The notes under the pieces are model-generated. The model was not told the origin of the DNA, searched no databases, and saw nothing but the letters and a program-made list of their open reading frames with translations. From NCBI GenBank assembly GCA_050184225.1, contig JBFXAN010000007.1, forward strand, positions 1,141 to 65,140: 64,000 nt of DNA. The letters are read 5' to 3'. The position numbers and the translations under genes were made by a program. This DNA comes from Dehalococcoidia bacterium (lineage in GTDB: Bacteria > Chloroflexota > Dehalococcoidia > CAUJGQ01). Within the stretch, counting starts at the first letter, position 1. Each line of letters starts with the position of its first letter. Shown here piece after piece: positions 5,665 through 27,945 of this stretch.

Positions 5665-6714
5665 ATGAGCATGCAGGATCAACACAACGGCGTCGAGCGC
5701 GAGCACATCGGCCTGCCACTGAAGGGCTATCTACGCCTGTATGACGCCCAACTGCGCGCCGAACGCAAGGCCGCCAAGACGATCCAGGTGTACGGCTACG
5801 TCCTGGGCAAGTTCGAGCAGTGGCTTGCGACAGAGCATGGCCGACCTCCGACGCTGGCTGACTTTCGGGCTGACCAGGCCCGGTTCTTCATGGTTGCCGT
5901 CCAGGAGAAGCCGAAGTGGGAGGGACACCCGACGCTCGCCGGTGTCACACCCGATGGTATCGCTGGGGCCACGCTCCATCTCTATGTGCGCACGCTCAAG
6001 ACGTTCGGCGCGTGGCTCGCTCGCGAAGGCTGCCTACCGGCAAATCCGGTAGAGATGCTGCGGCTGCCGCAGGTCGAGCAGAAGCAGCTTGTGCCGCTGA
6101 CCGAGGAGGAGGAGCGCCGCCTGCTCGGCGCATACGATGACAATCAGCCGGTGGATTGCCGGGTCAAGGCGATCTTCCTGCTGATGCTTGATACCGGGCT
6201 GCGACGCGCCGAGGTCATCACGCTCAAGGACCGGAACGTCGACCTGGACAATGGCTTCCTCCTCGTCATGGGCAAGGGACGCAAGGAGCGGTCGGTACCA
6301 TTCGGCTTTACGACCGAGAAAGTGCTGCGCAAGTACGCGACCTTCTTCCGCCCGGACCCGGCCGATCCGACTGTCGATGAGTTCTTCCTCTCTCCCGATG
6401 GCTATCCTCTCACCAGCAATGCCATTGTGATGATCTTCGCGCGGGCGCGGAAGCGCACAGGGATCGCCCGGCTCCACCCGCATCTTCTGCGGCATACCTA
6501 CGGCATCCGTGCTCAGGAGAGCGATATGCCCACAATCACGCTCCAGCACTATATGGGGCACTCCTCGTCAAAGGTGACGGAACGCTATGTGCACGCAGCG
6601 CAGAGCGAAAAGCTCAAACGAGCACGCGGGTATTCGCCGATTGATCAGCTTGGGCTCCGCGTAAAGAGTGTCGTGAGGGGAGGCAATGGGAGACCGGGTC
6701 GCGGTCGTAGGTAG
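5665..6714 (+). CDS. tyrosine recombinase / phage-type integrase
   Basis: 349 aa with an N-terminal SAM-like domain. Catalytic motifs are present: GLRRAE, HPHLLRHTY, GHSSSKVTERYVH. Confidence 0.85.
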   Translation: MSMQDQHNGVEREHIGLPLKGYLRLYDAQLRAERKAAKTIQVYGYVLGKFEQWLATEHGRPPTLADFRADQARFFMVAVQEKPKWEGHPTLAGVTPDGIAGATLHLYVRTLKTFGAWLAREGCLPANPVEMLRLPQVEQKQLVPLTEEEERRLLGAYDDNQPVDCRVKAIFLLMLDTGLRRAEVITLKDRNVDLDNGFLLVMGKGRKERSVPFGFTTEKVLRKYATFFRPDPADPTVDEFFLSPDGYPLTSNAIVMIFARARKRTGIARLHPHLLRHTYGIRAQESDMPTITLQHYMGHSSSKVTERYVHAAQSEKLKRARGYSPIDQLGLRVKSVVRGGNGRPGRGRR

Positions 6715-6858
6715 CCGTCCGAGACGAAGCCAAAAGTCGAGACGGCTGGAAAGGATGTGATCGGCCATGCTATCCGCCTCCTGCCTACGACCGAACAGCG
6801 GCATTGTGCGGCGCACGGAATCAATAACAGAGCAATGCCCATTGCACGTAACAGTATA

Positions 6859-7332
6859 ATGACACTAATGTCCATTGCGAAGGAGTTGCTGCCCTCTGTG
6901 CTTCCGATATCTCCGGTCGACGGTGCCGTGGTGCGCGTCGTGCATTACTACAACCTCGTAAGCATCGCCCAGGTCTGCAAGCTTCTCTCTGTCTTCCCCG
7001 GCTCTCTGGCCTATGCCCAGAAGCGGCTCAAACGGCTCACCGATCTGGGCTACCTGCAGGCGATCTACCTGCCGAAGACCACGCAGGCCGGCTATCTGGC
7101 GTGCGCGACCCCTGGAGAGAGGAGCCTGCCGATACAACTGATCAAACGAACGGACTCTTGGTGGAGGTGGGGAAGAATCGGACTCCCCTCTCACCCAGGT
7201 TCCAAGTCGCCGATTGCCCCCGCGTTTGCCGTCGAAATTGAAGCCGATTCGACTGCACTTGACTCCATCCGCAGGACCAAACCTGCTCGCACGCCGTGGT
7301 CCATCGCGGCGCCATCTGATCTGCTAAAATAG
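6859..7332 (+). CDS. replication-relaxation-family N-terminal domain protein, probably truncated
   Basis: FPGSLAYAQKRLKRLTDLGYLQAIYLP parallels YPGSLTWAQTKLKDLTEAGYLERIYLP of the gene at 52914-53822. The C-terminal part is unrelated and the start is uncertain. Confidence 0.4.
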   Translation: MTLMSIAKELLPSVLPISPVDGAVVRVVHYYNLVSIAQVCKLLSVFPGSLAYAQKRLKRLTDLGYLQAIYLPKTTQAGYLACATPGERSLPIQLIKRTDSWWRWGRIGLPSHPGSKSPIAPAFAVEIEADSTALDSIRRTKPARTPWSIAAPSDLLK

Positions 7333-7342
7333 GTAATCAATT

Positions 7343-8341
7343 ATGGTCGAGCGCCCGAGAGGACATTCTAGACCTTACACCAAAGAGGATTCCGGTCTTG
7401 TTGACCATGCGACCGAGAGTTCAACGGAGCTTCTCGCTGAACTCAAGCCGTTCTGGCATACGATCTACGGCGAGCGGTCTGGGCTGCTCGGCCTCTTCTC
7501 TGGGCATCGAGACGGCCCGCGCCTCCGTGCACCCCGGGAAATCTACTTCATCTGGCCCAATGGCGTGCACTACGCCGCCGACTGGCTGGCGGATGAAGTC
7601 GCCGCAGGGCGCGATGTCTATCAGTGCGCCCATCTCCTCACGCGACCTCGACGGCGAAAACAGTATGCCGCGCCACTGCGCTCCCTCTACGTCGATCTCG
7701 ACCGCGCCGAGTTGCCCGCCGGCGCGCCAGCGCCGAGCGTGGTGGTCGAGTCCTCCCCGGGCCGCTGGCAATGCTACTGGCCGCTGACCGAACCGGTCGA
7801 CCCACATCGCGGCGAGGATCTGAATCGGCGCCTCGCCTACGCCTTCGGGGCTGACCGATCGGGATGGGACCTCACCCAGTTGCTCCGTCTCCCGGCGACC
7901 CCGAACCGGAAGTACTTGGAGGCGCCGCCCGTCCGCCTCCTCCAGCACTCGGACGTCCGCTTCGACCCGCTGGCGCTGGACGAGTCATTGCCCTCGGTCC
8001 CGACGGCGGCAACCGCCCGGGCCGCAGGTGTCGGCGTGGGCGATGCGACGGCCGCGCCGCTCGACATCGAAGGGCGCCTGTCCAAGGCCGCGATGCGCGT
8101 CATGACTGGCGAGTCGGTGAAGCGAACACCGGATGGACGGCTCGATCGGTCGGCATCACTGGTGTGGATGGCCCGCGTCTTATGCGGTGCGGGCGCGAGT
8201 CGACCGGCGATCATCGCGGCACTGGCCGAACGAGACGCCACCTTGGGCTGGCGGAAGTTCACTGATCGGCGCGACGCCACCCCCCATTACCATCGGATCG
8301 TGGACGTGATCGAGCGAGGCACTCGGCCACAACGGTCTTGA
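7343..8341 (+). CDS. RepB-type DNA primase domain protein
   Basis: YVDLD ... VVVESSPGRWQCYWPL ... LLRLPATPNRK resembles the RepB primase domain of plasmids and integrative elements. Confidence 0.5.
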   Translation: MVERPRGHSRPYTKEDSGLVDHATESSTELLAELKPFWHTIYGERSGLLGLFSGHRDGPRLRAPREIYFIWPNGVHYAADWLADEVAAGRDVYQCAHLLTRPRRRKQYAAPLRSLYVDLDRAELPAGAPAPSVVVESSPGRWQCYWPLTEPVDPHRGEDLNRRLAYAFGADRSGWDLTQLLRLPATPNRKYLEAPPVRLLQHSDVRFDPLALDESLPSVPTAATARAAGVGVGDATAAPLDIEGRLSKAAMRVMTGESVKRTPDGRLDRSASLVWMARVLCGAGASRPAIIAALAERDATLGWRKFTDRRDATPHYHRIVDVIERGTRPQRS

Positions 8342-8508: not shown

Positions 8509-9033
8509 CTAGCGTATGAGCTTTAGACGAGAAAGGCGGATGGTCATCGCTTCCGAACTGACGCCGTATCTCTGGGAAAGTCGATCAATAATATCTTCTA
8601 TCTGAACATCTTCCGGGATTGACTGGAATTCTCGACTGATAGTATCTGCAGGCATGAGAAGTTCGGCCGCAAACTGGTTAGCTTCAACCTCGCGTTCATT
8701 TATCGCCATACTAGATACGTCATTTCGGAATCCGATCGGAACGTACTCATCAACATGCATATCATCATCACTGTGCAGTAATAGGTGTCCGATTTCGTGC
8801 GCAATCGTGAAGCGTTTGCGTGTAAGCGGCTGCAAAGAGTTTACGCCGATGACGTTGACCGCATCCGGTCGTCGATACGCCATACCAGAAAGAGACCCAT
8901 CGAATGGTTCGTATCGAATGGTCGCACCAACCAGGCTGGCAAGTGCTTCCACCGGTACTGGTGGTTCGGTAACTCCTGCTTTGACGAGCAATTGCGTCGC
9001 GCGTTTCCGCGCGAGGGCATATCTAGCTGCCAT
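8509..9033 (-). CDS. ImmA/IrrE-family zinc metallopeptidase (CapP-like)
   Basis: HEIGHLLLH (HExxH) motif. 174 aa, starting 1 nt after the XRE gene stop. Confidence 0.8.
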   Translation of the reverse strand: MAARYALARKRATQLLVKAGVTEPPVPVEALASLVGATIRYEPFDGSLSGMAYRRPDAVNVIGVNSLQPLTRKRFTIAHEIGHLLLHSDDDMHVDEYVPIGFRNDVSSMAINEREVEANQFAAELLMPADTISREFQSIPEDVQIEDIIDRLSQRYGVSSEAMTIRLSRLKLIR

Positions 9034-9034
9034 G

Positions 9035-9370
9035 TTAACGCTCCTGATCCGCAGAATGTGCCGGCCCCATCACCCGCTCCGCCCATGCTCGTTTCTCGGG
9101 GTCCAGCGCACGCAGCTTCGAGCTATTCGGGGGTCCGCTCGGTGCGGCCCGCAGTGGCAGCAGGTCACCAACGCTGACGCCAAGTGCGTCGGCGAGGCGG
9201 ATGAGCACGTGGATCTGCACCGGCTGGCGGCCCTTCTCGATGTTTGTGATGGAAGTTCGTGAGAGACCGACCGCACGAGCGAGATCCTCCTGTGTAATCT
9301 TCGCAGCCTGGCGCGCCCGGCTGAGACGCGCGCCCAACTCCTTGTACATCGGCCCCTGCGGTGTTGCCAT
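9035..9370 (-). CDS. XRE-family HTH transcriptional regulator (CapH-like)
   Basis: ITQEDLARAVGLSRTSITNIEKGRQ is a classic Cro/C1 HTH. The gene is divergent from the operon starting at 9605. Confidence 0.8.
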   Translation of the reverse strand: MATPQGPMYKELGARLSRARQAAKITQEDLARAVGLSRTSITNIEKGRQPVQIHVLIRLADALGVSVGDLLPLRAAPSGPPNSSKLRALDPEKRAWAERVMGPAHSADQER

Positions 9371-9451
9371 GCGAATAGGATATCTGGGTGGGTTGTACGG
9401 TCAACTGGGGAAACAGTTTCTCGTGGTGACATATGGCTTGGCACTGGTATT

Positions 9452-9480
9452 TTGACATCCACTCCAATATCCGCTACCCT
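9452..9480 (+). promoter_or_regulatory. candidate sigma70-type promoter for the MBL/E2-E1-JAB/patatin operon
   Basis: TTGACA (9452-9457), 17-nt spacer, TACCCT (9475-9480), about 125 nt upstream of the ATG at 9605. Confidence 0.3.
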
Positions 9481-9604
9481 CGCACAAATCAGTCGAGCTC
9501 ACCGCGGACGCCGATGGGCGCCATACCCCTCACGCGGTGCGGTCGAGCCGCTGGTTCGCCTTTAATCATCGAAGTCCTCGCCGACGGCGGGACGAGGGGG
9601 CTCC

Positions 9605-10852
9605 ATGACCACGGCAGTCTTCCCAGATCAGGGGATTATCTTCTGGCCGGTCGGCACTGGCGATTCCACGACCATCGTCTTCGACGAAGAGTGTGTCCTT
9701 CAGGTCGACCTTCACCACATGGCGGCAGCTGACGCAGAGGGCGCCGTGTGCTGCCCTGTAGTCGACCGTCTCCTAGAATCCCTGCCGCGTCGCGATGGGA
9801 AGCCTTACCTGGCGGTGTTTGCCCTCACCCACGCCGACCTCGATCATTGCAAGGGTTTCGGCGACCTGCTCGACTCAGATGTTCTGGTTGGCGAAATATG
9901 GGCTACGCCGCGGCTTTGGCGCGAATATGCGGACGAGGCCGAGATGTGCGAGGACGCGCGGCGGTTCCATGAGGAGGCAGATCGTCGCGTGCAGGCATCG
10001 CTTGAGCACCTCGCGGCCTGGCGTGACGTCCCGAGCGGTGACCGAGTGCGCATCATCGGCTACGACACCGACGTGAACGACCCGAGCCATCCCTACAGTG
10101 TCCTGCCCGACGAGCAGCGCAGTTTCCCCGGGGACGTCGTCACCGTAGTTGATGGTGTGGATGTCGGGCACCGCTTCGAGGCTTTCATTCACGCGCCGTT
10201 CAAAGACGACTGCGCAGCGGCGCGCAACGACACGTCCTTGGCGATGCAGGTCACGCTCCGGAACGGCGAGACCGACGGTCGCGTGCTACTATTCGGTGAT
10301 CTGGCGTATCCCACGCTGCGACTCATCTTCGACAGGAGCGTGGAGGCAGGAAATGCGGACCGTCTCCAGTGGGATGTGCTGCTCGCTCCGCACCACTGTA
10401 GCCGCAAAGTGATGTACGCCCCGGACGAGAACGGCGAGGAGGAGATGAAGCAAGATATCCTCGACGACTTCGATGCTAGTCGGCAGGAACCAGCCTATGT
10501 CGTGGCAAGCTCCAACCCGGTGCCGGCAACGAACCAGCCGAGGGACAATCCGCCCCATGCAAAAGCGAAGGCGCGCTACCAGGAGCTGGGCATCGAGCAG
10601 TTCCTCTGCACGCAGGAGCACGGCAGTGTCGACGCCCCTCAACCTGCCGTGTTCGCGCTGGTGCCGGGCGTGGGCCTTGTGCTCCAGCCGATCGAGGCGG
10701 TCGAGAGTGAATCCCTGGGCAAAACAATGGCGAAGCTCGCCGCTGCGGCGGCCGGCGGGACCGGCACGCTGATCGCGACACAGGAGGCGCTGAAGCGAGC
10801 TCGCGGTACGGATGCCGCGCCGGTCAAGCCCGTGGGCTTCGGTGGGTCGTAG
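9605..10852 (+). CDS. metallo-beta-lactamase-fold hydrolase (ComEC-C-terminal-like)
   Basis: VGTGDS ... LTHADLDHCKGF ... FGDL ... LLAPHHCS motifs. The Ala/Gly-rich C-terminal tail ends VGFGGS. Confidence 0.75.
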   Translation: MTTAVFPDQGIIFWPVGTGDSTTIVFDEECVLQVDLHHMAAADAEGAVCCPVVDRLLESLPRRDGKPYLAVFALTHADLDHCKGFGDLLDSDVLVGEIWATPRLWREYADEAEMCEDARRFHEEADRRVQASLEHLAAWRDVPSGDRVRIIGYDTDVNDPSHPYSVLPDEQRSFPGDVVTVVDGVDVGHRFEAFIHAPFKDDCAAARNDTSLAMQVTLRNGETDGRVLLFGDLAYPTLRLIFDRSVEAGNADRLQWDVLLAPHHCSRKVMYAPDENGEEEMKQDILDDFDASRQEPAYVVASSNPVPATNQPRDNPPHAKAKARYQELGIEQFLCTQEHGSVDAPQPAVFALVPGVGLVLQPIEAVESESLGKTMAKLAAAAAGGTGTLIATQEALKRARGTDAAPVKPVGFGGS

Positions 10853-10861
10853 CCGCGGAGA

Positions 10862-13432
10862 ATGGCGAGCACGGCCGGGCGAGATATAACACCGGGACAG
10901 GAGCAGGCGCTTCTTGAGCTTCGGGAAATCGCGGCCGAAGATCCTGCGGCCTTCGAGATCCTTGAGGTAGAGCAACTCACAACATCCGGTCATCTGCCGA
11001 TCCTCATCTCCGTCGGCACGTCAGGGGCCGGACAGGAAGGGCTGCTTACCCAAACCGGTCCCCGCGCACGGATTCGGGCTCGCGAACGCTTCCGCGTCCT
11101 CGTGCCCGCCAGCTTTCCCTTCGAGTATCCGCTGGTGCTCGTGCAACATGACCGGTTCGCGGGCCTTCCCCACGTACAGTGGCGGCGCTCCATCTGCTTG
11201 TACGTCTCACCGACGACGGAGTGGCAGCCCTCCGACGGCATGTTCGGCTTCCTCGAGCGCCTGCTGAAATGGATTGAGAGGGCGGCTGCCGGCGCATTGG
11301 ACCCGGCCGGCGAACCGCTGCACCCCCCCGCTGTCTATCCGACGACAGAAGGAGGAGCCGTGGTTGTCCGCGCTGATGCTCCTCTTACGACTGAAGAACC
11401 TTGGCTAGGCATTGCGGTGCTCAGGCGAATATCGCAGGTCCGGGTCGATCTGGTCGACTGGGCGGACCTCTCCGACGCACAGAACCTGCTCTACAATTCA
11501 CCCGCCGACGTGGCCAGCAAATGGCTCGAGGGCGAGGATAGACTCGGGAGCCTCGTCCTTGGATTGGCCGTCCTTTTGCCCAAACCGACGCAGTACGAGT
11601 ACCCAGTCAACGCACGCGCGCTCGTGGACATACTAGCCGGGCAGGGAATTTCTAAGGATAGTCTGATCAGCGGGCTGGCACTTCTGGCATTGCTTAACAA
11701 CCGCTTTGCCCCGCACCGACACGCCGATGAAGCAGAGGACACACCGATCTTCATGGTCGTCGGTGCACCGATGCGTGGGATGGCTGGCGGCGAGCGGCGA
11801 CAGCACCTCGCCGTCTGGCGGCTTTCTGAGCTGGGCCGGGATATCGTTCGGCTGCTCGACAATGTCTTCTCTGACTACACCGAACAGGCGTCCGTGGGGG
11901 AGAAGGCCAAGGACTTGCTGAGTGAGTGGCTCGATGTCGCCGGTCTGGATTGGGCGCGGGTCTACGAGGAGCGTCCCGAAGTGAGTACGCGGCGGGACGC
12001 TGGTAGTCCCCTGGAAGAGATTCGGGGCAAGCACGTCATGCTGCTCGGGTGTGGGGCCATTGGTGGGCATGCCGCTGAGTACCTCGTACGGGCGGGCGTG
12101 GCGTGCCTGACCCTCGTCGACAACGGGCGCGTCTCGCCGGGGGTGCTCGTGCGTCAGCCGTACGACGACTCCGACATTCATCGACCAAAGGCCGAAGCCC
12201 TTGCTGCGGGCCTTCACCGCATGAGGCCCGATTTGAACGTACGAGTGATCGTGGGGGACGCCCGCAAGACTGTGCTCGCCGACGATGAGCTCCGTGATGT
12301 CGATCTCATCATCGATGCAGCCGCAAATGCCGCCGTGACGGCGTTGCTCGAGCGGCGAAGGCGGGATTGGCCCTGGCCGCGCCCCTCGATTGTCACCATG
12401 CTGCTCGGACACCGAGCGACCCGTGCTATGACGACGGTCGCACCGAGTGATTACACCGGCAGCGGAATAGACCTGATGCGCAAGGTCAAGGTTGCAGTGT
12501 TCGCCGACCCGGATCTAGACGCGTTCGCCGAGGACTTCTTTCCCGATCCGCCCCGGTCCGACTACTTCCAGCCTGAGCCGGGTTGCTCGGAGGCCACATT
12601 TGTCGGTGCTGATGCTGACGTGGCGGCGCTCACCGCAACACTGCTCACGCACTCCCTGTCGCTGTGGAGATCGGCCGCGGACAGTGCGCGGGCGGCGGCC
12701 GTGTTAGTGGATCTGGGACTCGATACCAAGTTCCCCGCCAAGCTACGGCACATCTGGTGGCCTGCGGACGTGGTCCATCGCGACACCGACGCTCCGCTGG
12801 AGATCCGAATCTCACCATCAGCGTTCGCCGAAGTCCGAGCGGAGTGCCGCTTGATGGCACGACGACGCGGTTCGGAGATCGAGACCGGCGGCATCCTGCT
12901 CGGCGAGATAGACGATGCGTGCGGGATAGCGTGGGTGTCGGCAGCGACGGGCCCGCCACCTGACAGTCGGGCCTCGGCGCGGGCATTCATATGTGGTGTC
13001 GATGGGGTCGAGGAGCTGATCACTTCGCATGACCGAGCCTCCGGTGGGGCGTTGCGATTTGTCGGGATGTGGCATTGCCACCCTTTCGGATCGGCTAGAC
13101 CTAGTCCGGTAGACGACGAGGGGATGCGAGAACTCGTAACGCCGTTAGCTCAAGCCCCTCGGCGCGCGCTCCTGCTAATCATTGGCGGACGGGGTGCTCG
13201 CTGGGAATCCTGGCTGAATTCATCTGACGCAGGTAGCGTTGACGTACCACCCGAACTGTTCGTCCATCTTTGCCACCGGACCAGCGTCAGGGGTGCGACG
13301 TCTACCACTCCCACAGCCCTCTACCTAGCCGCCCTTTCGCACCCCAATTCCGCCGAGACACGTAGGTGGCCCTCAGCTCGCGAGAGAGCGGATCGCCGCG
13401 TGTGGCCCTGGGTCAGGTGGTGGCGCAGTTGA
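10862..13432 (+). CDS. E2(UBC-like)-E1(ThiF-like)-JAB/JAMM triple-fusion protein (Cap2+Cap3-like)
   Basis: E2 module: FPFEYP..LPHVQWRRSICLY (Cys112). E1 module: HVMLLGCGAIGGHAAEYLVRAGV..LVDNGRV. JAB module: ETGGILLG...WHCHPFGSARPSPVDD. Confidence 0.8.
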   Translation: MASTAGRDITPGQEQALLELREIAAEDPAAFEILEVEQLTTSGHLPILISVGTSGAGQEGLLTQTGPRARIRARERFRVLVPASFPFEYPLVLVQHDRFAGLPHVQWRRSICLYVSPTTEWQPSDGMFGFLERLLKWIERAAAGALDPAGEPLHPPAVYPTTEGGAVVVRADAPLTTEEPWLGIAVLRRISQVRVDLVDWADLSDAQNLLYNSPADVASKWLEGEDRLGSLVLGLAVLLPKPTQYEYPVNARALVDILAGQGISKDSLISGLALLALLNNRFAPHRHADEAEDTPIFMVVGAPMRGMAGGERRQHLAVWRLSELGRDIVRLLDNVFSDYTEQASVGEKAKDLLSEWLDVAGLDWARVYEERPEVSTRRDAGSPLEEIRGKHVMLLGCGAIGGHAAEYLVRAGVACLTLVDNGRVSPGVLVRQPYDDSDIHRPKAEALAAGLHRMRPDLNVRVIVGDARKTVLADDELRDVDLIIDAAANAAVTALLERRRRDWPWPRPSIVTMLLGHRATRAMTTVAPSDYTGSGIDLMRKVKVAVFADPDLDAFAEDFFPDPPRSDYFQPEPGCSEATFVGADADVAALTATLLTHSLSLWRSAADSARAAAVLVDLGLDTKFPAKLRHIWWPADVVHRDTDAPLEIRISPSAFAEVRAECRLMARRRGSEIETGGILLGEIDDACGIAWVSAATGPPPDSRASARAFICGVDGVEELITSHDRASGGALRFVGMWHCHPFGSARPSPVDDEGMRELVTPLAQAPRRALLLIIGGRGARWESWLNSSDAGSVDVPPELFVHLCHRTSVRGATSTTPTALYLAALSHPNSAETRRWPSARERADRRVWPWVRWWRS

Positions 13433-14580
13433 AGCGCGACATTGGATTAGCACTCTCGGGGGGTGGCTTCCGTGCCGCAGCGTTCCATCTGGGCTGCCTT
13501 CGCGCGCTCGACGACCGGGGTCTGCTCCCGCGTGTACGGGTCATCTCGGGTGTATCAGGCGGCGCGCTGCTCTCAGCCCTCTATGCGTACGGTCCGGCCA
13601 ACTTCCGCGAGTTTGATGAACGGGCGACGGAACTCCTACGCAATGGTTTGCAGCTTTCGATCACGCGTCAATTCCTGATGACTCGCCGCGCCCTGGAGGC
13701 TGGGCTTGGCGTCGCGCTCCGACCGGCCGATGCTGCCATATCTCTTGCTCAACGCCTGTTGGCGCCCAACGGCCCGAAACGGCAACGTGCTGCATTAGGG
13801 CAGACAGGTTTGCAACGCGTGCCGCGCGTCAATGTGACCACGGCGTTTGCCGACGTGCTCGCGGAGCGGTTCTTCGGTACCAAGTCAATGCCGATGGTGA
13901 CCCACGACGGACTCGATGTGGTGCTCACGGCGTGCGACCTCTGGACCGGGAGCGCAGTCCGATTCGGAAGCCGAACGAGCGCCTGCTCCCGCATTGGAGA
14001 GATACTCGATGACGTGACCGTCGCCTCGGCCGTCGCGGCATCGGCCGCATACCCGGCGCTGCTTCCCTCGCTGGAGCAGCGCTACCGCTTCCGCGATCGA
14101 GCTGGGAGGGAGTTGGAGCAACTGCTCCTGCTGACCGACGGCGGCGTATACGACAATCTCGGGCTTAGCGTCCTTGAGCTGGGCCGGGATGAGCGCTATA
14201 CCCGTCATGTCTACGACGTGGACTACGTGGTCGCCTGTGATGCGGGCCAAGGTCGCTTGGCACCAGCATTGCCGCGGGTGTGGCCGACGCGCATGATGAG
14301 GGTCGTGAGTGTCATGCATGGGCGCGCTCAAAATAGGCAACGCGCACTTCTCTACGCGGCTAGATCGAGCGGGAATCTGTCAGGATTTGTCCATGCCTAC
14401 CTCGGCATGGAGGATCGATTCTTACCAGTGCCTCTTCCCGACCTTGTCCCCAGAGAGGCGGTCGCCCAATATCCGACCAATTTTAGGGCAGTGTCTGCGG
14501 AAGGTCTTTACAACCTCACTATTCGTGGCGAGCAACTCGCGCGGATACTTTTGGCTCACTACTGCCCGTCCTTGACTTGA
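13366..14580 (+). CDS. patatin-like phospholipase
   Basis: LSGGGFRAAAFHLG oxyanion motif, GVSGG (Ser64) and TDGGVYDNLG. The true start may be the GTG at 13417, which overlaps the upstream stop. Confidence 0.85.
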   Translation: MALSSRESGSPRVALGQVVAQLKRDIGLALSGGGFRAAAFHLGCLRALDDRGLLPRVRVISGVSGGALLSALYAYGPANFREFDERATELLRNGLQLSITRQFLMTRRALEAGLGVALRPADAAISLAQRLLAPNGPKRQRAALGQTGLQRVPRVNVTTAFADVLAERFFGTKSMPMVTHDGLDVVLTACDLWTGSAVRFGSRTSACSRIGEILDDVTVASAVAASAAYPALLPSLEQRYRFRDRAGRELEQLLLLTDGGVYDNLGLSVLELGRDERYTRHVYDVDYVVACDAGQGRLAPALPRVWPTRMMRVVSVMHGRAQNRQRALLYAARSSGNLSGFVHAYLGMEDRFLPVPLPDLVPREAVAQYPTNFRAVSAEGLYNLTIRGEQLARILLAHYCPSLT

Positions 14581-14973
14581 GGCATACTCACGCCGCCAAC
14601 GAAGCCTAAAATGCTAGGCATTATTAACTCATATAGTCAGCGATTGTGATGTATAGAACTGACTTGTCATTATGTTCGGCATTCGGTCCGTGCTGCGTGC
14701 GTGCTCCATACTTCCAGTAGGGCTGGCGTCGCCTTCGTCGCGACGCTCAGCATCCGTGCCGTCGGCCGGAGCTGACGACGAGCCTGGAAGACAGGCGCCC
14801 CATCTTGACGGCCGGGTGCCCGTGCCGGTTGCAGGTATGGTGCGACCGCTACGTCGGGATGGCGGAACGCTGCGCCACAGGCGGTGCCGCTCAGTCAGTG
14901 TTCGCATAACGCCAGTTTCCCGCCCCTCGGTGCGGCGCCTATTGACCTGGACTAACGCACCGTCGCTCCGGCA

Positions 14974-15186
14974 TCAGCCAATGCGGCGGTAGGGGTAGCG
15001 ATCCTTTAATTCCTCGTGAACGAATGACCCCTTGGAGGGGGCGGACAAGAAGCGCTGAAAGACGCTCGATGGCACGCCGCTGTAGGCATACAGGGAGCCG
15101 TTATGGAACCGCACCTGCAGGAGTTCGGTCGCGTCATCATAACCAATCGCGGCGACGTTGCTGGATGAGACCGGGATCATGTCCAT
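14974..15186 (-). CDS. KTSC domain protein
   Basis: SSNVAAIGYD..LLQVRFHNGSLYAYSGVPSSVFQRFLSAPSKGSF matches the KTSC domain pattern. Confidence 0.7.
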   Translation of the reverse strand: MDMIPVSSSNVAAIGYDDATELLQVRFHNGSLYAYSGVPSSVFQRFLSAPSKGSFVHEELKDRYPYRRIG

Positions 15187-15370
15187 CAGCTTCCCCCAAT
15201 CGCGTGTCGGTCATTGGTCCCGCCACCCATGCTGCTTGCCACGCCAGCATGGGCGATGAACGAGCAGGTCATACACTTCGGAGTCTGCTCCCATGCTACC
15301 GGTATCTGCCAGTTAGGCAGCCCACGCCGCACAACGGCCACTTTGCGTCGCGGCCGTATAATTAGCGCAT

Positions 15371-15922: not shown

Positions 15923-16049
15923 ACCGACGGCTCACGTCGCCTTTGACGGGTTCTACGTCGTGGACGGCCAGGTTGACGATCACCGATCACGTCGGCACGG
16001 CAAGACTGCCCCCAAAGTCGGTCGGTGCGAAAGACATACAGCAACCGTA

Positions 16050-16676
16050 CTACAGCCAAGCCTTCCCCTTGTAATACATGACCATCGGATCGATGTCCAG
16101 CAATTTATTTGCACTGTCAACACCAACAAGCACACCGATCACTTCCAGTGCAACACCTCTCGCACTCCTAGACAACAGTAGAAATCGCTCCGTCATACTG
16201 TCGCTAATCAACGACTCCGCCGAAGCGATCAGTCGAATAGTCCAATTGCTCTTTCTTCCCATGAATAGCAGATGATCGACCAGTTCATGATAGCGCTCTA
16301 CTTTGAAATTACTCTGAACGGCTGCCAGATCAAATTCAATAGACTGGAAATCGTCGTTGGCTAGTGCTTGCTCGTCAAGAATCAATAGCTTGCCATGGTC
16401 GGCAGCATATTTCTGTACCATCTGGAATCTTTGTGCAGGAAAGAGTCTTTGTATCACTTCTCTTGAACGGGCGCCCTCCTCGGATAGCTCGCCGGTGAGC
16501 TCGAAGTTTAGTCCGAGCACACTGAGCAGCTTTCCAAGGCCGAGCTTTCCTCCAGTTTTATCGTTACGGCGAGAAGATTCTGTCGATTTGAGCTGCTCCT
16601 CAACCCTTTCGACCGTAGAGCTGTATGCGATATCTATTTTCGCCGTGTTCATGTATACCATATTGAGAATGGACAT
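16050..16676 (-). CDS. hypothetical protein (low-GC cassette, downstream gene)
   Basis: 208-aa clean ORF in a visibly AT-richer segment, 7 nt after the upstream gene. No family recognised. Confidence 0.5.
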   Translation of the reverse strand: MSILNMVYMNTAKIDIAYSSTVERVEEQLKSTESSRRNDKTGGKLGLGKLLSVLGLNFELTGELSEEGARSREVIQRLFPAQRFQMVQKYAADHGKLLILDEQALANDDFQSIEFDLAAVQSNFKVERYHELVDHLLFMGRKSNWTIRLIASAESLISDSMTERFLLLSRSARGVALEVIGVLVGVDSANKLLDIDPMVMYYKGKAWL

Positions 16677-16682
16677 TACAGT

Positions 16683-17543
16683 TTACCTCAGATCATGATC
16701 GTTCGCTTCTAAGCGGTTGATCTGTTCAGTGAGTTCTTCGATGCGGCCAAGCTCGAACCCAAACAATTCACTTTGCAAGTGTATGGCAAGGCTGTCAATA
16801 TCTTCGAGACCATGTCGTAACTCTTCAGCTTCTGTATTCCTATGTAGTTTGTCAAGAACGTCACACTTTGCTGTAACCAGTGCGCGAAAAACAAAGGGAT
16901 AGTATGAGCTGGTGTCGTAATACTCATCGGAGAAGATGCATTTGGGTTTGTACTCGTCGGATAGCAGTGATTCAATACCGTAATTGCAGTATTCTAGTGC
17001 CTCAGATTCTTGTCCGTTCATGTTGTAATGAATAGCCATTATAAAGTTCATGTACGGTTCTGTCGGATCATATTCGAGGGCCATGCGAGCAGCTTCAACT
17101 CCGCGATCAGTCTCTCCTGCATCAAGAAGCAGGTCACAGGCGGTCATACATAGCGAAAGAATGATGCGAGATGTGTAGTGGGTATCCTGAACAATATCGA
17201 ATCCATCACGGACGAGTTGCCATGCGCGGTTGTAGTCACCTGACTCGCGGGCTTCACTAATGGAGTTCATGAGGCTATGCATCTGGTCTATATGCGACAA
17301 CTCATCAGGGCCGAGCCATAGGGTTCGCTGATGTTTGTCGAGTTTAACTACCATTTCCTCGCCGGTGGCCAGATTGGTTGCGTGGTACACGATCATACAA
17401 CCGCCGATAGCGAGGATGTACTCCAGTAGCAGCGTGCCAGTAGGGGTCTCCAGTCGGTGGCCAATGTAGCTCTCTGGGGTACGCATTGGCAGCGCTCTTT
17501 CCACTGGTGTTGGTCGGCGCGTCGCGCTTACTGACCGCTGCAC
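16683..17543 (-). CDS. hypothetical protein with helical-repeat (TPR-like) region
   Basis: 286-aa ORF in the low-GC segment. The central and C-terminal part is helical-repeat-like (YNRAWQLVRDG..., ALEYDPTEPYMNFIMAIHY). Confidence 0.5.
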   Translation of the reverse strand: MQRSVSATRRPTPVERALPMRTPESYIGHRLETPTGTLLLEYILAIGGCMIVYHATNLATGEEMVVKLDKHQRTLWLGPDELSHIDQMHSLMNSISEARESGDYNRAWQLVRDGFDIVQDTHYTSRIILSLCMTACDLLLDAGETDRGVEAARMALEYDPTEPYMNFIMAIHYNMNGQESEALEYCNYGIESLLSDEYKPKCIFSDEYYDTSSYYPFVFRALVTAKCDVLDKLHRNTEAEELRHGLEDIDSLAIHLQSELFGFELGRIEELTEQINRLEANDHDLR

Positions 17544-17727
17544 TGGTTCGTAAACCTTCGGCAGCCGAGCGCCTCGGCCTGGGTTCGATCGTGCTCCTCC
17601 GGCGGCGGGATAATTTAGAAACCTATGCTGAGGTCAGTAAGTCAGCGGGTGGTTAAAGCCTGATTGGAGGCGCGCTCTTTAAAGTTGGTCACTTGGGTGT
17701 CACGTCTGTCAATACTGGCACGGTGAG

Positions 17728-18445
17728 TGTACACGTTCAGTGATTCTGTCGTCCGATCTGTTCAGTGAAAGTGTCACCTCCCGTACCGGCGCCAGGGGTG
17801 CGAGGCGGCGGGCGGGCGCTGGCGGCTGGGGGCGGCGTCAATCGGCGTGGGCGCGGCGACGGTGACGGCGGGCTGGTCCGGGCCGAACCAGTGATGGGGA
17901 CTGCCATCGGCCTGGACGAGCATGCCCTCCTGGGCCATCCGCACCCGCCGCGCCCGTCGCACCGGCCGGCGCCGCGGGTGCGCCTCGACCACTCCGGCGG
18001 CGCGCAGCACGCGGCGCACCGTGCTGCGGCTGAGGTGGATCGCCTCCCGTTCCGCCAGCGTCTCGGTCAGGTGCTGCTGGTTGAAGCCGGCGTATGGTCC
18101 TTGGGCCAACGCCACGATGCGGGCGGCAGCCTCCGGCGCCGTCGCCCACGCTGGCGTGCGCCCGCGATTGCCATGCACCAGGGCCGCTGGACCATGGGCG
18201 CGGTAGGCCGCCTGCAGCCGCTGCACCTGGCGAACCGAGCGTCCGAGCAGCGCCGCAGCCTCCTCGACTGTGACCAGACCCGCCCAGACCTGGTTCAACA
18301 CCAGCGCTCGCTTCTGCTCATTGCGTCCCAAGATGAGTGTCTCCTCGTTCATCCCTTCAGCGTTCGTGATGCCGTGCCCACGCGCAGCGCCACGGTGACA
18401 TTTTCACTGAACACTTCGCGGGTGACGGAATCGCTGGACACCCAC
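17728..18445. mobile_element. internally deleted IS remnant with imperfect terminal inverted repeats
   Basis: TTCAGTGAAAGTGTCACC (17761-17778) faces GGTGACATTTTCACTGAA (18395-18412). A flanking 16-nt direct repeat ATACTGGCACGGTGAG lies at 17712-17727 and 18446-18461. Confidence 0.55.
17774..18352 (-). pseudogene. truncated transposase (HTH N-terminus plus start of DDE domain; ISNCY/IS481-like)
   Basis: LVHGNRGR and MLVQADGSPHHWFGP motifs are typical of the N-terminal third of these transposases. The rest of the DDE domain is missing. Confidence 0.6.
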
Positions 18446-18495
18446 ATACTGGCACGGTGAGCCAGCATCATAACCTGCCGACCGAGTCCCTCCAC

Positions 18496-18596
18496 GTCCG
18501 ATAACGGCTTTTATCGGACTCACGCCCCCACCCGGCTCAATTCAACCTGGTCGCTGGCTGCGTCCGGATAACGGGCAAATCCTCACGTTATCGGAC
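18496..18596. promoter_or_regulatory. two inverted-repeat pairs of GTCCGATAAC upstream of the recombinase gene
   Basis: Pair 1 is GTCCGATAA-N6-TTATCGGAC (18496-18519). Pair 2 is GTCCGGATAACG-N12-CGTTATCGGAC (18562-18596). Confidence 0.4.
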
Positions 18597-18657
18597 CCAC
18601 TTTCCGGGGCCACGTTGCCGTTGACGGCCTGCCACCCGCGCGGTATCGTTAGGCCAT

Positions 18658-19590
18658 ATGAACAATAATCTGCAAATACACAATCAGCGAGCGAATTTCA
18701 CCCTGGTCGTCGGGCAGCCGGCGACCCCACTGGAGGTGACCATCGAAGCCTTCCTCCGCTCGTTGCCTGGGAAGAACCGCAGCGCCGCCACGGTGAAGGC
18801 CTACCGCTCGGACCTCGGCCAGTTCGCCACCTGGCTGACCGAGAACAACGTCATCGCCGTTGACCCGACCAGGATTCGCCGTGCTGACGTTGAAGCCTAC
18901 CTCTCGGACCTGGCCCACCTCGGCCTGTCTGGTGTCTCACGGTCACGCAAGCTGGCCGCCATTCGGGAGTACTTCCGCTTCCTCGAGGACCACGGCACCA
19001 TTGCCCGCTCCCCCGCCGCCGGCGTGGACGGACCCCGGCGCGAGCAGAAGACCCGCTCGTATCTCAAACCCGACGAATATCGCGCCGTGCTGTCACTCGC
19101 CGGCAGCAACGCCCGCGACTACGCCATCTTGCAGGTCTTCCTGCAGACCGGCCTGCGCGTCTCGGAGCTGGTCCATTTGCGCATGGTCGACCTCGACCTG
19201 GCCGGCAAGGTGCTGACCGTGCGTGGTGGCAAGGGGCTCAGCGACCGGGAGATTGACCTGGAGAAGCATGCGATTGAGGCGGTGAAGAATTGGCTGAGAA
19301 TCCGCCCCCCCAGCTTGCACGAGCACCTATTCCTCAACTACCGGGGCGAACCCATCAGCGAGCGCAGCGTGCGGCGCCTGGTGGCCAAGTACCGCCACCG
19401 CGCCGGTCTGACGAAGAAAGCGACGCCCCACACGCTGCGGCACACCTTCGCCAGCTACAAAGCCCGTCGCGGCGTCCCCTTGCGCCAGGTCCAGGAATGG
19501 CTGGGGCACAAGAACATCGCCACGACGCAAATCTACGTCCACCTGGACCGCCAGGACGCCCAGAAAGCGATGGAGGCGACCAGCCTATGA
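18658..19590 (+). CDS. tyrosine recombinase (XerC/XerD-like)
   Basis: TVKAYRSDLGQF, GLRVSEL, PHTLRHTFAS and LGHKNIATTQIYVH motifs. Confidence 0.85.
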   Translation: MNNNLQIHNQRANFTLVVGQPATPLEVTIEAFLRSLPGKNRSAATVKAYRSDLGQFATWLTENNVIAVDPTRIRRADVEAYLSDLAHLGLSGVSRSRKLAAIREYFRFLEDHGTIARSPAAGVDGPRREQKTRSYLKPDEYRAVLSLAGSNARDYAILQVFLQTGLRVSELVHLRMVDLDLAGKVLTVRGGKGLSDREIDLEKHAIEAVKNWLRIRPPSLHEHLFLNYRGEPISERSVRRLVAKYRHRAGLTKKATPHTLRHTFASYKARRGVPLRQVQEWLGHKNIATTQIYVHLDRQDAQKAMEATSL

Positions 19591-20218
19591 CCCGCAGCCG
19601 GTTGCTCCGACTCCGCCGGCGCCGGATGGCCGAGCGGTCCTACGACCACCAGGCCGAACTAGGCCGGATTGCCCAGTGGCTGCAGGACCACGGCTGCAGG
19701 ACCACCCACGGAGGCAGCGGTGAGCGAACGGGAGCCCCGCCGTGGCGAGGAGCCGCAGGCCTTCCGTGACTTCGCCGCACAATTACCAGAGGCAAACCAT
19801 CGCCGATGCCTATTGGCATGTGCGCCGGGCCTCAGGATGCACGCAAGGCCTCAGAAATCGCCACCCAAAACGGCACGGTGGAGGTTCTTTGTCTGCTGCC
19901 GTCACGTTATTCGGGCAGCCTGCCACTTCCTGCTGATCGTTGACAGGTGGCGCGGGCATCGGCAATTTCGGAGCTGGCTCCCGTGGGACGGTCACCAACT
20001 CCGCGCGCCGTCGCCGATTACGCGCAACGGCTATCAGATCGCTGCTCCATAAGTCGTTGGGCGGACCGCCGAACCGGCCCGCTGCTGCTGGCACTATCCA
20101 GCGCAGTCTTGTATGCTCCCCCCAATTGGGTTTATGCACAGGCGACTGCCGTAGTGGTTGGCGTTGTCACTATGACGTTGACTTCAATTGTGCAGGCGCG
20201 TATACAGGTATACAGGAC

Positions 20219-20650: not shown

Positions 20651-20689
20651 CTCCAGTGCTCTGCTACATGAGTTGCAGCGTGCACGTTT

Positions 20690-21247: not shown

Positions 21248-21265
21248 CAGCCTCCTCCTGGGTCT

Positions 21266-21818: not shown

Positions 21819-21847
21819 GCGGCTCAAAAGGCTCCAACGCTTTCGAG

Positions 21848-23054: not shown

Positions 23055-23928
<874 letters not shown>

Positions 23929-27517: not shown

Positions 27518-27663
27518 CCCTAGTTATTAATAGCAGCCCGGCTTTCAAAACCCGTACGTGCCCAGATGCGATCCCGTCGGCCGACCCGTACAGGTTTCCT
27601 GGCCTCGGGTGCGATCAACCATATAGAGGGGTGACGAGATGCCCCACTTCACAGGAGGACGTG

Positions 27664-27936: not shown

Positions 27937-27945
27937 GAGAGCCGC

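What the first reader, a model, noticed from the sequence alone, without database searches (positions are those of the whole stretch)
9605..14580. E2-E1-JAB triple-fusion operon with an MBL hydrolase and a patatin phospholipase, but no CD-NTase and no Ubl
Three co-directional genes are tightly packed. There is a 9-nt gap between genes 1 and 2, and the start of gene 3 overlaps the stop of gene 2.

1. A 415-aa MBL-fold hydrolase with ComEC-like motifs (THADLDH, APHHCS).
2. One 856-aa polypeptide with three modules: an E2/UBC-like module (LPHVQWRRSIC112LY), a ThiF/E1 Rossmann (LLGCGAIGGHAAEYLVRAGV) and a complete JAMM motif (ETGG...WHCHPFGSARPSPVDD).
3. A patatin phospholipase (GGGFR, GVS64GG, DGG).

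E2-E1 (Cap2), JAB (Cap3) and patatin (CapV) are the accessory and effector parts of type II CBASS. The defining cyclase is missing here. I see no nucleotidyltransferase-like ORF in or beside the operon, and an MBL hydrolase occupies its slot. There is also no free beta-grasp Ubl of the kind found in Bil operons.

What gets conjugated, and how the phospholipase is triggered without a cyclic-nucleotide signal, is therefore unexplained. I know of no experimentally characterised system with this composition. Earlier comparative-genomic catalogues of prokaryotic E1/E2/JAB operons may list relatives, and I cannot check that here.
Basis: partly seen in the sequence, partly recalled or inferred. Interest (0 to 1): 0.9.

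Follow-up and report, generated by a model that had tools for sequence, protein, structure and literature searches.

The report
Known 6A-MBL defence system, patatin variant
The three genes are real, but two of them form the already named "6A-MBL" anti-phage system, a ubiquitin-like ligase that appears to attach a nuclease-like enzyme to other proteins. What looks undescribed is that a large branch of this system, including this locus, carries a membrane-attacking patatin phospholipase as a third part.

Summary
Three co-directional ORFs lie at 9605-10852, 10862-13432 and 13366-14580: an MBL-fold protein, an E2-E1-JAB fusion and a patatin.

The novelty claim is overstated. The MBL and the E2-E1-JAB protein both pass NCBIfam's curated cut-offs for the "anti-phage 6A-MBL system". 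This is operon type 6a of Iyer et al. 2006, which held papers cite as phage-defensive in Pseudomonas aeruginosa.

- **What gets conjugated.** Most likely the MBL itself. Its disordered C-terminal tail ends in a conserved ...ARGxxxAPxxxVGFG followed by 0-9 variable residues (118 of 120 homologues). The same tail sits on CD-NTases and on a STAND-like protein that partner same-clade ligases.
- **MBL fold.** The closest solved structure is the ComEC nuclease domain.
- **Patatin.** It is a real partner. Among loci whose MBL has the VGFG tail, 81 of 84 carry it, and in 28 it is fused in-frame to the JAB end. In relatives the same slot holds small multi-TM proteins or a metallophosphoesterase.
- **Regulators.** A CapH/CapP-like pair lies divergently upstream.

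Verdict: a patatin-bearing variant of a known system, mechanism untested. How the phospholipase is triggered remains open.

The parts
8509..9033 (-). CapP-like M78/ImmA zinc peptidase, a regulator, transcribed divergently from the operon
   Evidence: Pfam Peptidase_M78 1e-25. Best PADLOC hit is capP, PDLC04141, 1.6e-32. The same HTH+M78 pair lies directly upstream and divergent in L025, L057, L071, L077 and L045.
9035..9370 (-). CapH-like XRE-family HTH repressor
   Evidence: Pfam HTH_31 2e-17. Best PADLOC hit is capH, PDLC04142, 8.2e-13.
9371..9604 (.). Divergent intergenic control region. It has promoter-like sites on both strands (9426-9453 on +, 9404-9377 on -) and an imperfect inverted repeat at 9493-9506 / 9533-9546.
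   Evidence: These are consensus matches only and are weak evidence.
9605..10852 (+). 6A-MBL system MBL-fold protein (415 aa): a ComEC-like metallo-hydrolase core (about residues 1-360) followed by a disordered tail
   Evidence: NCBIfam NF058524 270.7 bits, cut-off 220. AlphaFold pLDDT 82.9, with residues 370-415 below 50. Foldseek top hit is 9ic4, the ComEC beta-lactamase-like domain, E 2e-10, TM 0.73. Invariant H76xD78xD80H81, H196, D232, H263H264.
10802..10849 (+). Conjugation tail R400-G413 (RGTDAAPVKPVGFG) plus a two-residue pro-extension (GS, 10844-10849). Gly413 (10841-10843) is the predicted residue to be adenylated.
   Evidence: 118 of 120 homologues end in ...VGFG plus 0-9 variable residues. 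Within the related loci only 1 of 87 ends exactly at the Gly. The same tail is found on the CD-NTases of L019 and L029 and on the STAND-like partner in L066.
10862..13432 (+). E2-E1-JAB triple fusion (856 aa; Cap2-Cap3-like). E2 covers about aa 1-165, with Cys112 at 11195-11197. The E1/ThiF domain covers about aa 380-600, with Cys575 at 12584-12586. The JAB domain covers about aa 642-790 (12785-13231).
   Evidence: NCBIfam NF058523 365 bits, cut-off 320. Pfam Prok-E2_A, ThiF and Prok-JAB. PADLOC E1-E2 PDLC00857 4.6e-78 and JAB 2.9e-20. Best PDB sequence hit is Cap2 7to3. Invariant catalytic residues are listed.
13366..14580 (+). Patatin-like phospholipase. The maximal ORF is 404 aa; the probable start is GTG 13417 or 13420, giving about 386 aa.
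   Evidence: Pfam Patatin 3e-22. AlphaFold pLDDT 86.6. Foldseek hits are patatin, PlpD, CapE and CapV at 1e-11 to 1e-7. Invariant GGGxR, Ser and DGG. The patatin is fused to or adjacent to the E2-E1-JAB gene in 81 of 84 loci whose MBL has the VGFG tail.

Best explanation
This is a 6A-MBL-family anti-phage system of the 'VGFG-tail' clade. It has a patatin phospholipase as a third, effector-slot component and a CapH/CapP-type regulator pair upstream. The proposed mechanism follows. Only the sequence features are shown here; every enzymatic step is inferred by homology.

1. The CapH-like repressor holds the operon down, and the CapP-like peptidase relieves repression under stress.
2. The ComEC-like MBL is made as a pro-protein. 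The JAB domain of the fusion protein trims the short variable extension ('GS' here) and exposes ...VGFG-COOH.
3. The E1 domain adenylates Gly413. The MBL passes as a thioester from E1 Cys575 to E2 Cys112 and is then ligated to a lysine on one or more unknown targets. The JAB domain can reverse this. This matches what Cap2 and Cap3 do with the CD-NTase in type II CBASS.
4. Conjugation primes, relocates or activates the nuclease-like MBL.
5. The patatin is often covalently fused to the ligase. It acts as a membrane-damaging effector whose activity depends on the state of the conjugation machine rather than on a diffusible nucleotide. The expected result is abortive infection.
For: **Family identity.** Both hallmark proteins exceed the NCBIfam equivalog cut-offs. 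The operon type is described in PMC1779556. 6A-MBL is cited as an anti-phage system.

**The MBL is the ligase substrate.**
- Its tail is disordered.
- The tail has a conserved ARGxxxAPxxxVGFG motif followed by a non-conserved extension of 0-9 residues in 118 of 120 homologues.
- The identical tail is present on CD-NTases (L019, L029) and a similar one on a STAND-like protein (L066), all in the same position before same-clade ligases.
- Ligase clades track tail type, not cargo fold. Ligases of the GFG-tail and RAG-tail groups are only about 19% identical to each other. Ligases paired with a CD-NTase are up to 69% identical to GFG-clade ligases paired with an MBL.
- Across the wider MBL family most C-termini end in Gly or Ala. 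This is the rule reported for type II CBASS cyclases (PMC11153139).
- Cap3 cleaves peptide-linked C-terminal fusions exactly after the last residue of the cyclase (bioRxiv 2022.03.31.486616).

**Enzymes look active.** All catalytic residues of E2, E1 and JAB are invariant.

**The MBL resembles a nuclease.** ComEC is the top structural hit.

**The patatin is a genuine partner.**
- 81 of 84 VGFG-tail loci carry it, and 28 of these are in-frame fusions, against 6 of 34 RAG-tail loci.
- Look-ups that start from two patatin homologues land on the same trio.
- Its catalytic residues are invariant.

**The third position is an effector slot.** Elsewhere it holds a metallophosphoesterase fusion (L055), three families of 3-4-TM proteins, or a second MBL.

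**Regulators.** The best PADLOC hits of the upstream pair are capH and capP.
Against: - No biochemistry was done here. JAB trimming, adenylation and the conjugation target are all inferred.
- I could not read the primary 6A-MBL paper, so I do not know the composition of the validated system or whether it already reports the patatin or the tail.
- MBL nuclease activity is inferred from fold similarity at 16% sequence identity.
- Nothing shows how the patatin is gated. It has no recognisable sensor domain, and the fusion linkers contain no JAB-type cleavage motif.
- The CapH/CapP pair accompanies only a minority of related loci, so it is an optional add-on.
- The tail/patatin association statistic is not corrected for phylogeny.
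Confidence: 0.6

Rival explanations
1. Signalling model. The MBL replaces the CD-NTase as the signal-generating enzyme. Once primed by conjugation, it releases a small molecule, for example a nucleotide or oligonucleotide hydrolysis product, and this molecule activates the patatin or, in other loci, the TM proteins. That would make it a CBASS-like pathway with new chemistry.
For: - The MBL occupies exactly the CD-NTase position and carries the same tail.
- The third slot is filled by effector types typical of nucleotide-signalling systems: patatin and small multi-TM proteins.
- PMC11601596 refers to the MBL as one of the 'signaling enzymes' of these pathways.
- Some lower-ranked Foldseek hits are MBL-fold phosphodiesterases (7dck, 4ojv).
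Against: - MBL enzymes are hydrolases, and the closest structure is a DNA nuclease domain.
- The patatin has no SAVED, CARF or cNMP-binding domain and hits no PADLOC model, including the CBASS patatin effector.
- The patatin is often fused to the ligase, which a freely diffusing signal would not require.
- Some loci show only MBL plus E2-E1-JAB, with no conserved ORF following.
Confidence: 0.15
2. Bil-like tagging model. The ligase attaches the MBL directly to phage proteins or structures, so the nuclease is delivered to phage DNA or particles. The patatin attacks phage-associated membranes, for example the early-infection vesicles of jumbo phages, rather than killing the host cell.
For: - A held preprint lists 6A-MBL among 'jumbo phage defense systems'.
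- A nuclease together with a lipase would suit a target that is enclosed in membrane.
Against: - No target is known.
- The hosts of this clade are mostly Actinomycetota and environmental phyla. I know of no vesicle-forming jumbo phages for these hosts; this rests on my own knowledge.
- In B. cereus CBASS the conjugation target is a host protein, PspA.
Confidence: 0.1
3. Not primarily anti-phage. The cassette would serve the mobile element that carries it, through addiction or exclusion of competing elements or of incoming DNA. The ComEC-like nuclease would act on transferred DNA.
For: - The locus sits next to an integrase and a RepB-primase-like gene, inside a mosaic island that also has a TraD-like coupling protein.
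- Iyer et al. 2006 raised a selfish-maintenance role for these operons.
- L086 has a TrwC relaxase next to the trio.
Against: - 6A-MBL is reported as phage-defensive.
- The island also carries other defence-type genes: a PD-T4-6-like kinase, a Bub-like E1 and capP-like genes.
- Defence systems are commonly carried on mobile elements in any case.
Confidence: 0.07
4. The patatin is an unrelated neighbouring gene, and the true system is only the two-gene 6A-MBL.
For: - Iyer et al. 2006 describe 'usually two genes'.
- NCBIfam defines only two component models.
- 28 RAG-tail loci have no patatin.
Against: - There are 28 in-frame fusions of the patatin to the JAB end.
- Adjacency or overlap is conserved across more than eight phyla.
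- Patatin homologues map back to the trio.
Confidence: 0.03

Closest known systems
6A-MBL anti-phage system (operon type 6a of Iyer, Burroughs & Aravind 2006; named and tested in P. aeruginosa by van den Berg et al. 2024, as cited in held papers)
   Same: - A specialised MBL-fold gene lies immediately upstream of a single E2-E1-JAB polypeptide.
- Both window proteins pass the NCBIfam equivalog cut-offs.
- The locus is on a mobile or defence island.
   Different: - This locus has a third conserved gene, the patatin. It is absent from the NCBIfam and PADLOC component sets and from the 2006 description.
- The window MBL belongs to a sub-family only about 24% identical to the MBL of L022, which scores highest against the model (398 bits).
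- Its tail is VGFG plus a pro-extension, not the ...PRAG tail of most patatin-less loci.
- A CapH/CapP pair is attached.
- I could not check the composition of the experimentally validated system.
Type II CBASS (CD-NTase + Cap2 E2-E1 + Cap3 JAB + effector such as CapV patatin)
   Same: - Cap2- and Cap3-type enzymology, with conserved E1 and E2 cysteines.
- The substrate is an enzyme with a disordered tail ending in Gly or Ala.
- There is a patatin-class effector.
- Some systems have CapH/CapP regulators.
- Same-clade E2-E1-JAB fusions serve true CD-NTase operons (L019 with an upstream patatin, L029 with a SAVED effector).
   Different: - There is no CD-NTase; an MBL hydrolase takes its place.
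- The patatin lies downstream of, or is fused to, the JAB domain instead of lying upstream of the cyclase.
- The patatin does not hit any PADLOC model and shows no similarity to the CBASS patatin of L019.
- No nucleotide-sensor domain was found.
Bil (bacterial ISG15-like) systems
   Same: An E1, E2 and JAB cascade used in phage defence, with the JAB domain both maturing and reversing the modifier.
   Different: - Bil has a free beta-grasp Ubl and separate, eukaryote-like E1 and E2 proteins.
- Here there is no Ubl, and the E2, E1 and JAB domains form one Atg7/Cap2-like chain.
Bub (bacterial ubiquitination-like) pathways, Ye et al. 2024 (PMC11601596)
   Same: A ubiquitination-related defence-island operon. 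A BubCD-like E1 lies elsewhere in this same window (28092-29729).
   Different: - Bub works through serine oxyesters and has a Ubl and a Ser-His protease.
- The protein studied here keeps invariant catalytic cysteines and a JAMM site.
ComEC beta-lactamase-like nuclease domain (PDB 9ic4)
   Same: It is the best structural match of the MBL core (E 2e-10, TM 0.73). Some NCBI records annotate homologues as 'ComEC/Rec2 family'.
   Different: - The window protein is soluble and stand-alone, with no competence-channel domains.
- Sequence identity is 16%.
- It carries a conjugation tail.

Membership tests
6A-MBL anti-phage system | MBL-fold protein of the specialised 6A type (NCBIfam NF058524 at or above its cut-off) | tested here: met
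   270.7 bits against a cut-off of 220, with residues 13-351 matching model positions 1-341 of 346. The MBL fold is confirmed by AlphaFold and Foldseek.
6A-MBL anti-phage system | A single polypeptide with E2, E1 and JAB domains in that order (NF058523 at or above its cut-off) | tested here: met
   365 bits against a cut-off of 320. Pfam finds the three domains in that order. Caveat: the CBASS-linked fusion in L019 also passes this model (372 bits), so the model alone is not specific to an MBL partner.
6A-MBL anti-phage system | The two genes are adjacent and co-directional in one operon | tested here: met
   The gap is 9 nt. The same arrangement is seen in about 75 of 80 related loci.
6A-MBL anti-phage system | Simple two-gene composition (Iyer 2006: 'usually with two genes') | tested here: not met
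   A third gene, the patatin, overlaps the end of gene 2. It is conserved or fused across the clade.
6A-MBL anti-phage system | Protects against phage | not testable with these tools
   Only second-hand citations were available. The primary paper is not held.
Type II CBASS | CD-NTase (SMODS) cyclase in the operon | tested here: not met
   No SMODS or CD-NTase hit in genes 1-3 or their neighbours. Gene 1 has an MBL fold.
Type II CBASS | Cap2-type E2-E1 with catalytic cysteines, plus a Cap3-type JAB | tested here: met
   PADLOC E1-E2 4.6e-78 and JAB 2.9e-20. The best PDB sequence hit is Cap2 7to3. C112, C575 and the JAMM residues are invariant.
Type II CBASS | An effector activated by a cyclic nucleotide (CapV-type patatin or SAVED fusion) | tested here: inconclusive
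   The patatin fold is present, with CapE and CapV among the structural hits at the same level as plant patatin and PlpD. It hits no PADLOC model, and no sensor domain was found. Ligand dependence cannot be tested here.
Bil system | A free beta-grasp ubiquitin-like protein with a C-terminal Gly | tested here: not met
   No Ubl ORF was found. The downstream small ORFs have no Pfam hit and are not conserved. The MBL tail is disordered and is not a beta-grasp.
Bub pathway | Catalytic serines (oxyester intermediates) in E1 and E2 | tested here: not met
   The invariant residues at the catalytic positions are cysteines, C112 and C575.
CapH/CapP regulatory module | An XRE-type HTH repressor plus an M78 metallopeptidase, placed divergently upstream of the defence operon | tested here: met
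   The best PADLOC hits are capH 8.2e-13 and capP 1.6e-32. The genes lie on the minus strand, 235 nt upstream of the MBL start. Their regulatory function was not tested.

The most novel reading that the evidence does not exclude
In the VGFG-tail clade, Cap2-like conjugation of an enzyme cargo (the pro-MBL) would directly switch on a phospholipase that is tethered or fused to the ligase. The switch might work by ligating the MBL onto the ligase-patatin complex, or by conjugation-driven assembly. That would be a defence pathway in which a ubiquitin-like modification itself, and not a second messenger, carries the signal from sensor to membrane effector. A portable 14-residue tail would act as a minimal 'ubiquitin' that can be grafted onto MBLs, cyclases or STAND NTPases.
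Probability: 0.25. Interest if true: 0.75.

Novelty: new variant of a known kind. Interest (0 to 1): 0.5.

Why it matters
Type II CBASS showed that bacteria conjugate whole enzymes through Cap2-like ligases. What conjugation achieves is still debated.

The 6A-MBL family is a simpler relative whose mechanism I found described in no held paper. The patatin-bearing clade seen here adds three useful handles:

- a cargo that is systematically made as a pro-form, so JAB trimming can be tested cleanly;
- a short tail motif shared by unrelated cargos, which defines what the ligase recognises;
- an effector that is often covalently fused to the ligase, which argues for direct protein-level control of a phospholipase.

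If confirmed, this would show how ubiquitin-like chemistry alone can connect sensing to killing. It would also provide a transferable tag-and-ligase pair.

If the primary literature already covers the patatin subtype, the locus is just another member of a named system.

Tried and rejected
- **Divergent CD-NTase in gene 1.** Rejected. The fold is MBL and the top structural hit is ComEC. Gene 1 matches NCBIfam's 6A-MBL model and has no SMODS hit.
- **Hidden Ubl gene.** The small ORFs at 14629-15365 have no Pfam hit and no homologue in 87 related loci.
- **JAB-mediated release of the patatin from fusion proteins.** The JAB-patatin linkers are 20-30 non-conserved residues with no GFG-type site.
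- **Patatin as a CapV orthologue.** It hits no PADLOC or NCBIfam model. tblastn with the window patatin finds nothing in L019, whose CBASS patatin is Pfam-confirmed. Foldseek places CapE and CapV no closer than plant patatin or PlpD.
- **Nucleotide-level relatives on plasmids.** Megablast of 9400-14700 found nothing. A protein-level plasmid search found 7 distant hits, annotated only as 'ThiF family' or 'hypothetical'.
- **Phage carriage.** Only 1 hit in 2.9 million viral contigs.
- **Attachment-site repeats around the island.** Only short two-copy matches, none convincing.
- **Organism identification.** Cluster look-ups returned no names.
- **Literature.** No held paper combines patatin with the MBL and E2-E1-JAB operon. 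The primary 6A-MBL paper is not held. The Cap2 preprint does not mention MBL operons.


Full report
**1.

The mechanical ORF list gives three co-directional ORFs at 9605-10852 (415 aa), 10862-13432 (856 aa) and 13366-14580 (404 aa) (translations). Nine bases separate genes 1 and 2. Gene 2 stops at 13430-13432. Homologue N-termini place the start of gene 3 at GTG 13417 or 13420, giving an overlap of 13-16 nt.

Pfam finds Prok-E2_A, ThiF and Prok-JAB, in that order, in gene 2 and Patatin in gene 3. Gene 1 gives only sub-threshold lactamase hits.
- MBL: H76xD78xD80H81 and H263H264.
- Fusion protein: E2 Cys112, the E1 glycine loop and Cys575, and JAMM E674, H738xH740, S748 and D751.
- Patatin: GGGxR, the catalytic Ser and DGG.

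The operon's GC content (0.62-0.65) matches the rest of the window.

**2. Two of the three genes belong to a named system.**

NCBIfam assigns gene 1 to NF058524, 'anti-phage 6A-MBL system MBL-fold protein' (270.7 bits, cut-off 220). It assigns gene 2 to NF058523, '6A-MBL system cap2_3 protein' (365 bits, cut-off 320).

The name goes back to Table 1, row 6a, of Iyer, Burroughs and Aravind 2006. [quoted passage not shown]

Three held papers bear on the system's status:
- A 2026 review credits van den Berg et al. 2024 with showing anti-phage activity of 6A-MBL in Pseudomonas aeruginosa (PMC13276650).
- A 2025 preprint lists 6A-MBL among jumbo-phage defence systems.

The primary paper is not held. 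I therefore could not check the exact composition of the validated system. No solved structure matches the MBL by sequence.

**3. The MBL resembles a ComEC-type nuclease and has a flexible tail.**

An AlphaFold model built on 39 homologues is confident (pLDDT 82.9, pTM 0.83), except for residues 370-415, which are disordered. Foldseek against the PDB puts the ComEC beta-lactamase-like domain (9ic4) first at E 2e-10 and TM 0.73. That is five orders of magnitude ahead of the class B3 lactamases.

**4. What gets conjugated: the MBL itself.**

- Of 120 MBL homologues, 118 end in a conserved ...[KR]xARG[ATD]xxAPxxxVGFG followed by 0-9 unconserved residues. The most common extension is two residues, and the window has 'GS'.
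- In the combined loci only 1 of 87 VGFG tails ends exactly at the Gly.
- Conservation up to a glycine followed by a throw-away extension is the signature of a ubiquitin-type precursor.
- The same tail sits on other cargos placed just before same-clade ligases. The CD-NTases of L019 and L029 end in '...ARGSAEPPQTRVGFGR'. A 781-aa STAND/AfsR-like protein in L066 ends in '...ARGDDSAVPPESTFGGRGRAW'.
- Ligase sequence follows tail type, not cargo fold. Ligases that partner VGFG tails are on average 41% identical to each other but only 19% identical to those that partner ...PRAG tails. The ligases linked to CD-NTases in L019 and L029 are 68-69% identical to the MBL-linked ligase in L022.
- Across 50%-identity representatives of the whole MBL family, most C-termini end in Gly or Ala, for example ...TYG...EHG and ...RFA.
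- This matches the rule reported for type II CBASS cyclases, where the last residue 'is typically an Ala or Gly' and is ligated to a lysine (PMC11153139).
- Cap3 cuts peptide-linked fusions exactly after the last cyclase residue. The fused JAB domain is therefore a credible maturase as well as a deconjugase.

All of these steps are inferred. None was measured here.

**5. The patatin is a real, clade-specific third component.**

A scan of one genome per GTDB species found 348 relatives of the ligase. In the 80 closest, which are 34-42% identical, about 70 show MBL, then E2-E1-JAB, then patatin. In 25 of these the patatin is fused in-frame to the JAB end, giving proteins of 1140-1260 aa. Such four-domain proteins are also common in the protein database.

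The hosts span Actinomycetota, Planctomycetota, Acidobacteriota, Chloroflexota, Cyanobacteria, Verrucomicrobiota, Latescibacterota, Elusimicrobia and several proteobacterial groups. Look-ups starting from two patatin homologues, and from two shorter ligases, land on the same trio.

A metagenome scan seeded with the other MBL sub-family shows the contrast. Most of those loci have ...PRAG tails and no patatin. Counting both sets of loci:

| MBL tail type | With patatin | Without patatin |
|---|---|---|
| VGFG | 81 (28 fused) | 3 |
| PRAG | 6 | 28 |

Fisher's exact test gives p = 5e-18, not corrected for phylogeny.

The patatin model is confident (pLDDT 86.6). It resembles plant patatin, PlpD, CapE and CapV about equally. 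It hits no PADLOC or NCBIfam model.

**6. The third position behaves as an effector slot.**

In relatives the slot holds one of the following:
- a calcineurin-like phosphoesterase fused to the JAB domain (L055);
- a second small MBL (L034, L039, L140);
- one of three conserved families of small proteins with 3-4 predicted transmembrane helices.

This modularity, mostly directed at membranes, parallels CBASS and Pycsar effectors. Here, however, no nucleotide-sensor domain is visible. The fusion linkers carry no JAB-type cleavage site, so the patatin stays tethered to the ligase.

**7. Regulation and context.**

Divergently upstream lie an XRE-type HTH gene (9035-9370) and an M78 peptidase gene (8509-9033). 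Their best PADLOC hits are capH and capP. From my own knowledge, Lau et al. 2022 (EMBO J) showed that this pair de-represses CBASS after DNA damage.

The same pair lies directly upstream and divergent in L025, L057, L071, L077 and L045. It is therefore an optional add-on. The 235-nt intergenic region has promoter-like sites on both strands and one imperfect inverted repeat, which is weak evidence.

The cassette sits just downstream of a tyrosine integrase and a RepB-primase-like gene, inside a mosaic island. It is almost absent from viral contigs.

**8. Most likely mechanism, and rivals.**

My preferred model (confidence about 0.6) runs as follows. CapH and CapP control expression. The JAB domain trims the pro-MBL after Gly413. 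E1 adenylates the new C-terminus. The MBL moves as a thioester from Cys575 to Cys112 and then onto a target lysine, reversibly. This primes or relocates a ComEC-like nuclease. The tethered patatin delivers membrane damage under control of the conjugation machine.

| Rival | Approximate confidence |
|---|---|
| The MBL is a signal generator for the patatin | 0.15 |
| Bil-like tagging of phage structures | 0.10 |
| A role in mobile-element competition | 0.07 |
| The patatin is a bystander gene | 0.03 |

The gating of the patatin is the weakest link. It is also the real open question.

**9. Novelty and score.**

The system is rare. Only 343 of 1.84 billion 50%-identity cluster representatives match the MBL at E <= 1e-10. 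The core is nevertheless known and named.

I found the following described neither in the libraries nor in any held paper:
- the patatin-bearing (or patatin-fused) VGFG-tail clade;
- the pro-tail shared across MBL, cyclase and STAND cargos;
- the variable membrane-effector slot.

I rate the locus 'new variant of a known kind' with interest 0.5. The caveat is that the primary 6A-MBL paper may already cover part of this.

Noticed in passing
window 27631-29729 (+): A second ubiquitination-like module lies in the same island. The 545-aa ThiF-domain protein at 28092-29729 has Citrobacter BubCD, the peptidase-E1 fusion of the Bub pathway, as its best PDB sequence hit (E 2e-24). A 101-aa ORF directly upstream (27631-27936) could be its Ubl.
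   Followed up: partly
window 23055-23834 (-): A Ser/Thr protein kinase whose best PADLOC hits are PD-T4-6 models (1.8e-48). It may be another defence gene in the island.
   Followed up: no
window 25645-26157 (+): A second capP-like M78 peptidase (PADLOC capP 5e-20). An HTH-containing ORF lies nearby at 26125-26805 (-).
   Followed up: no
window 5665-8341; 16000-22000; 32000-33000; 53498-55282: Signs of a mosaic mobile element:
- tyrosine integrases at 5665-6714 and 18658-19590, plus a fragment at 21266-21697;
- a RepB-primase-like gene at 7343-8341;
- a transposase-type HTH fragment at 17774-18352;
- low-GC patches at 16-17 kb (0.47) and 32-33 kb (0.48);
- a TraD/TrwB-like coupling protein at 53498-55282.

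No convincing att repeats were found.
   Followed up: partly
L019 7863-10304 and L029 7845-10295 (with upstream CD-NTases): These are genuine type II CBASS operons (patatin or SAVED effector, then CD-NTase, then an E2-E1-JAB fusion). In L019 the fused Cap2-Cap3 passes the NCBIfam '6A-MBL_cap2_3' equivalog cut-off (372 bits against 320). That model would therefore mis-name CBASS ligases of this clade.
   Followed up: yes
L066 4511-6856: A 781-aa STAND/AfsR-like NTPase carries the same type of conjugation tail (...ARGDDSAVPPESTFGG...). It sits in the cargo position before an E2-E1-JAB. This may be a third kind of conjugated cargo.
   Followed up: partly
L117, L123, L149, L150, L153, L160; L096, L126, L143; L116, L127 (gene directly after E2-E1-JAB): Three conserved families of small proteins, about 175-250 aa with 3-4 predicted TM helices and no Pfam domain, occupy the third slot in 6A-MBL loci that lack a patatin. 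They are candidate membrane effectors.
   Followed up: partly
L055 2315-5791: An E2-E1-JAB fused at its C-terminus to a calcineurin-like metallophosphoesterase instead of a patatin, next to a VGFG-tail MBL.
   Followed up: partly
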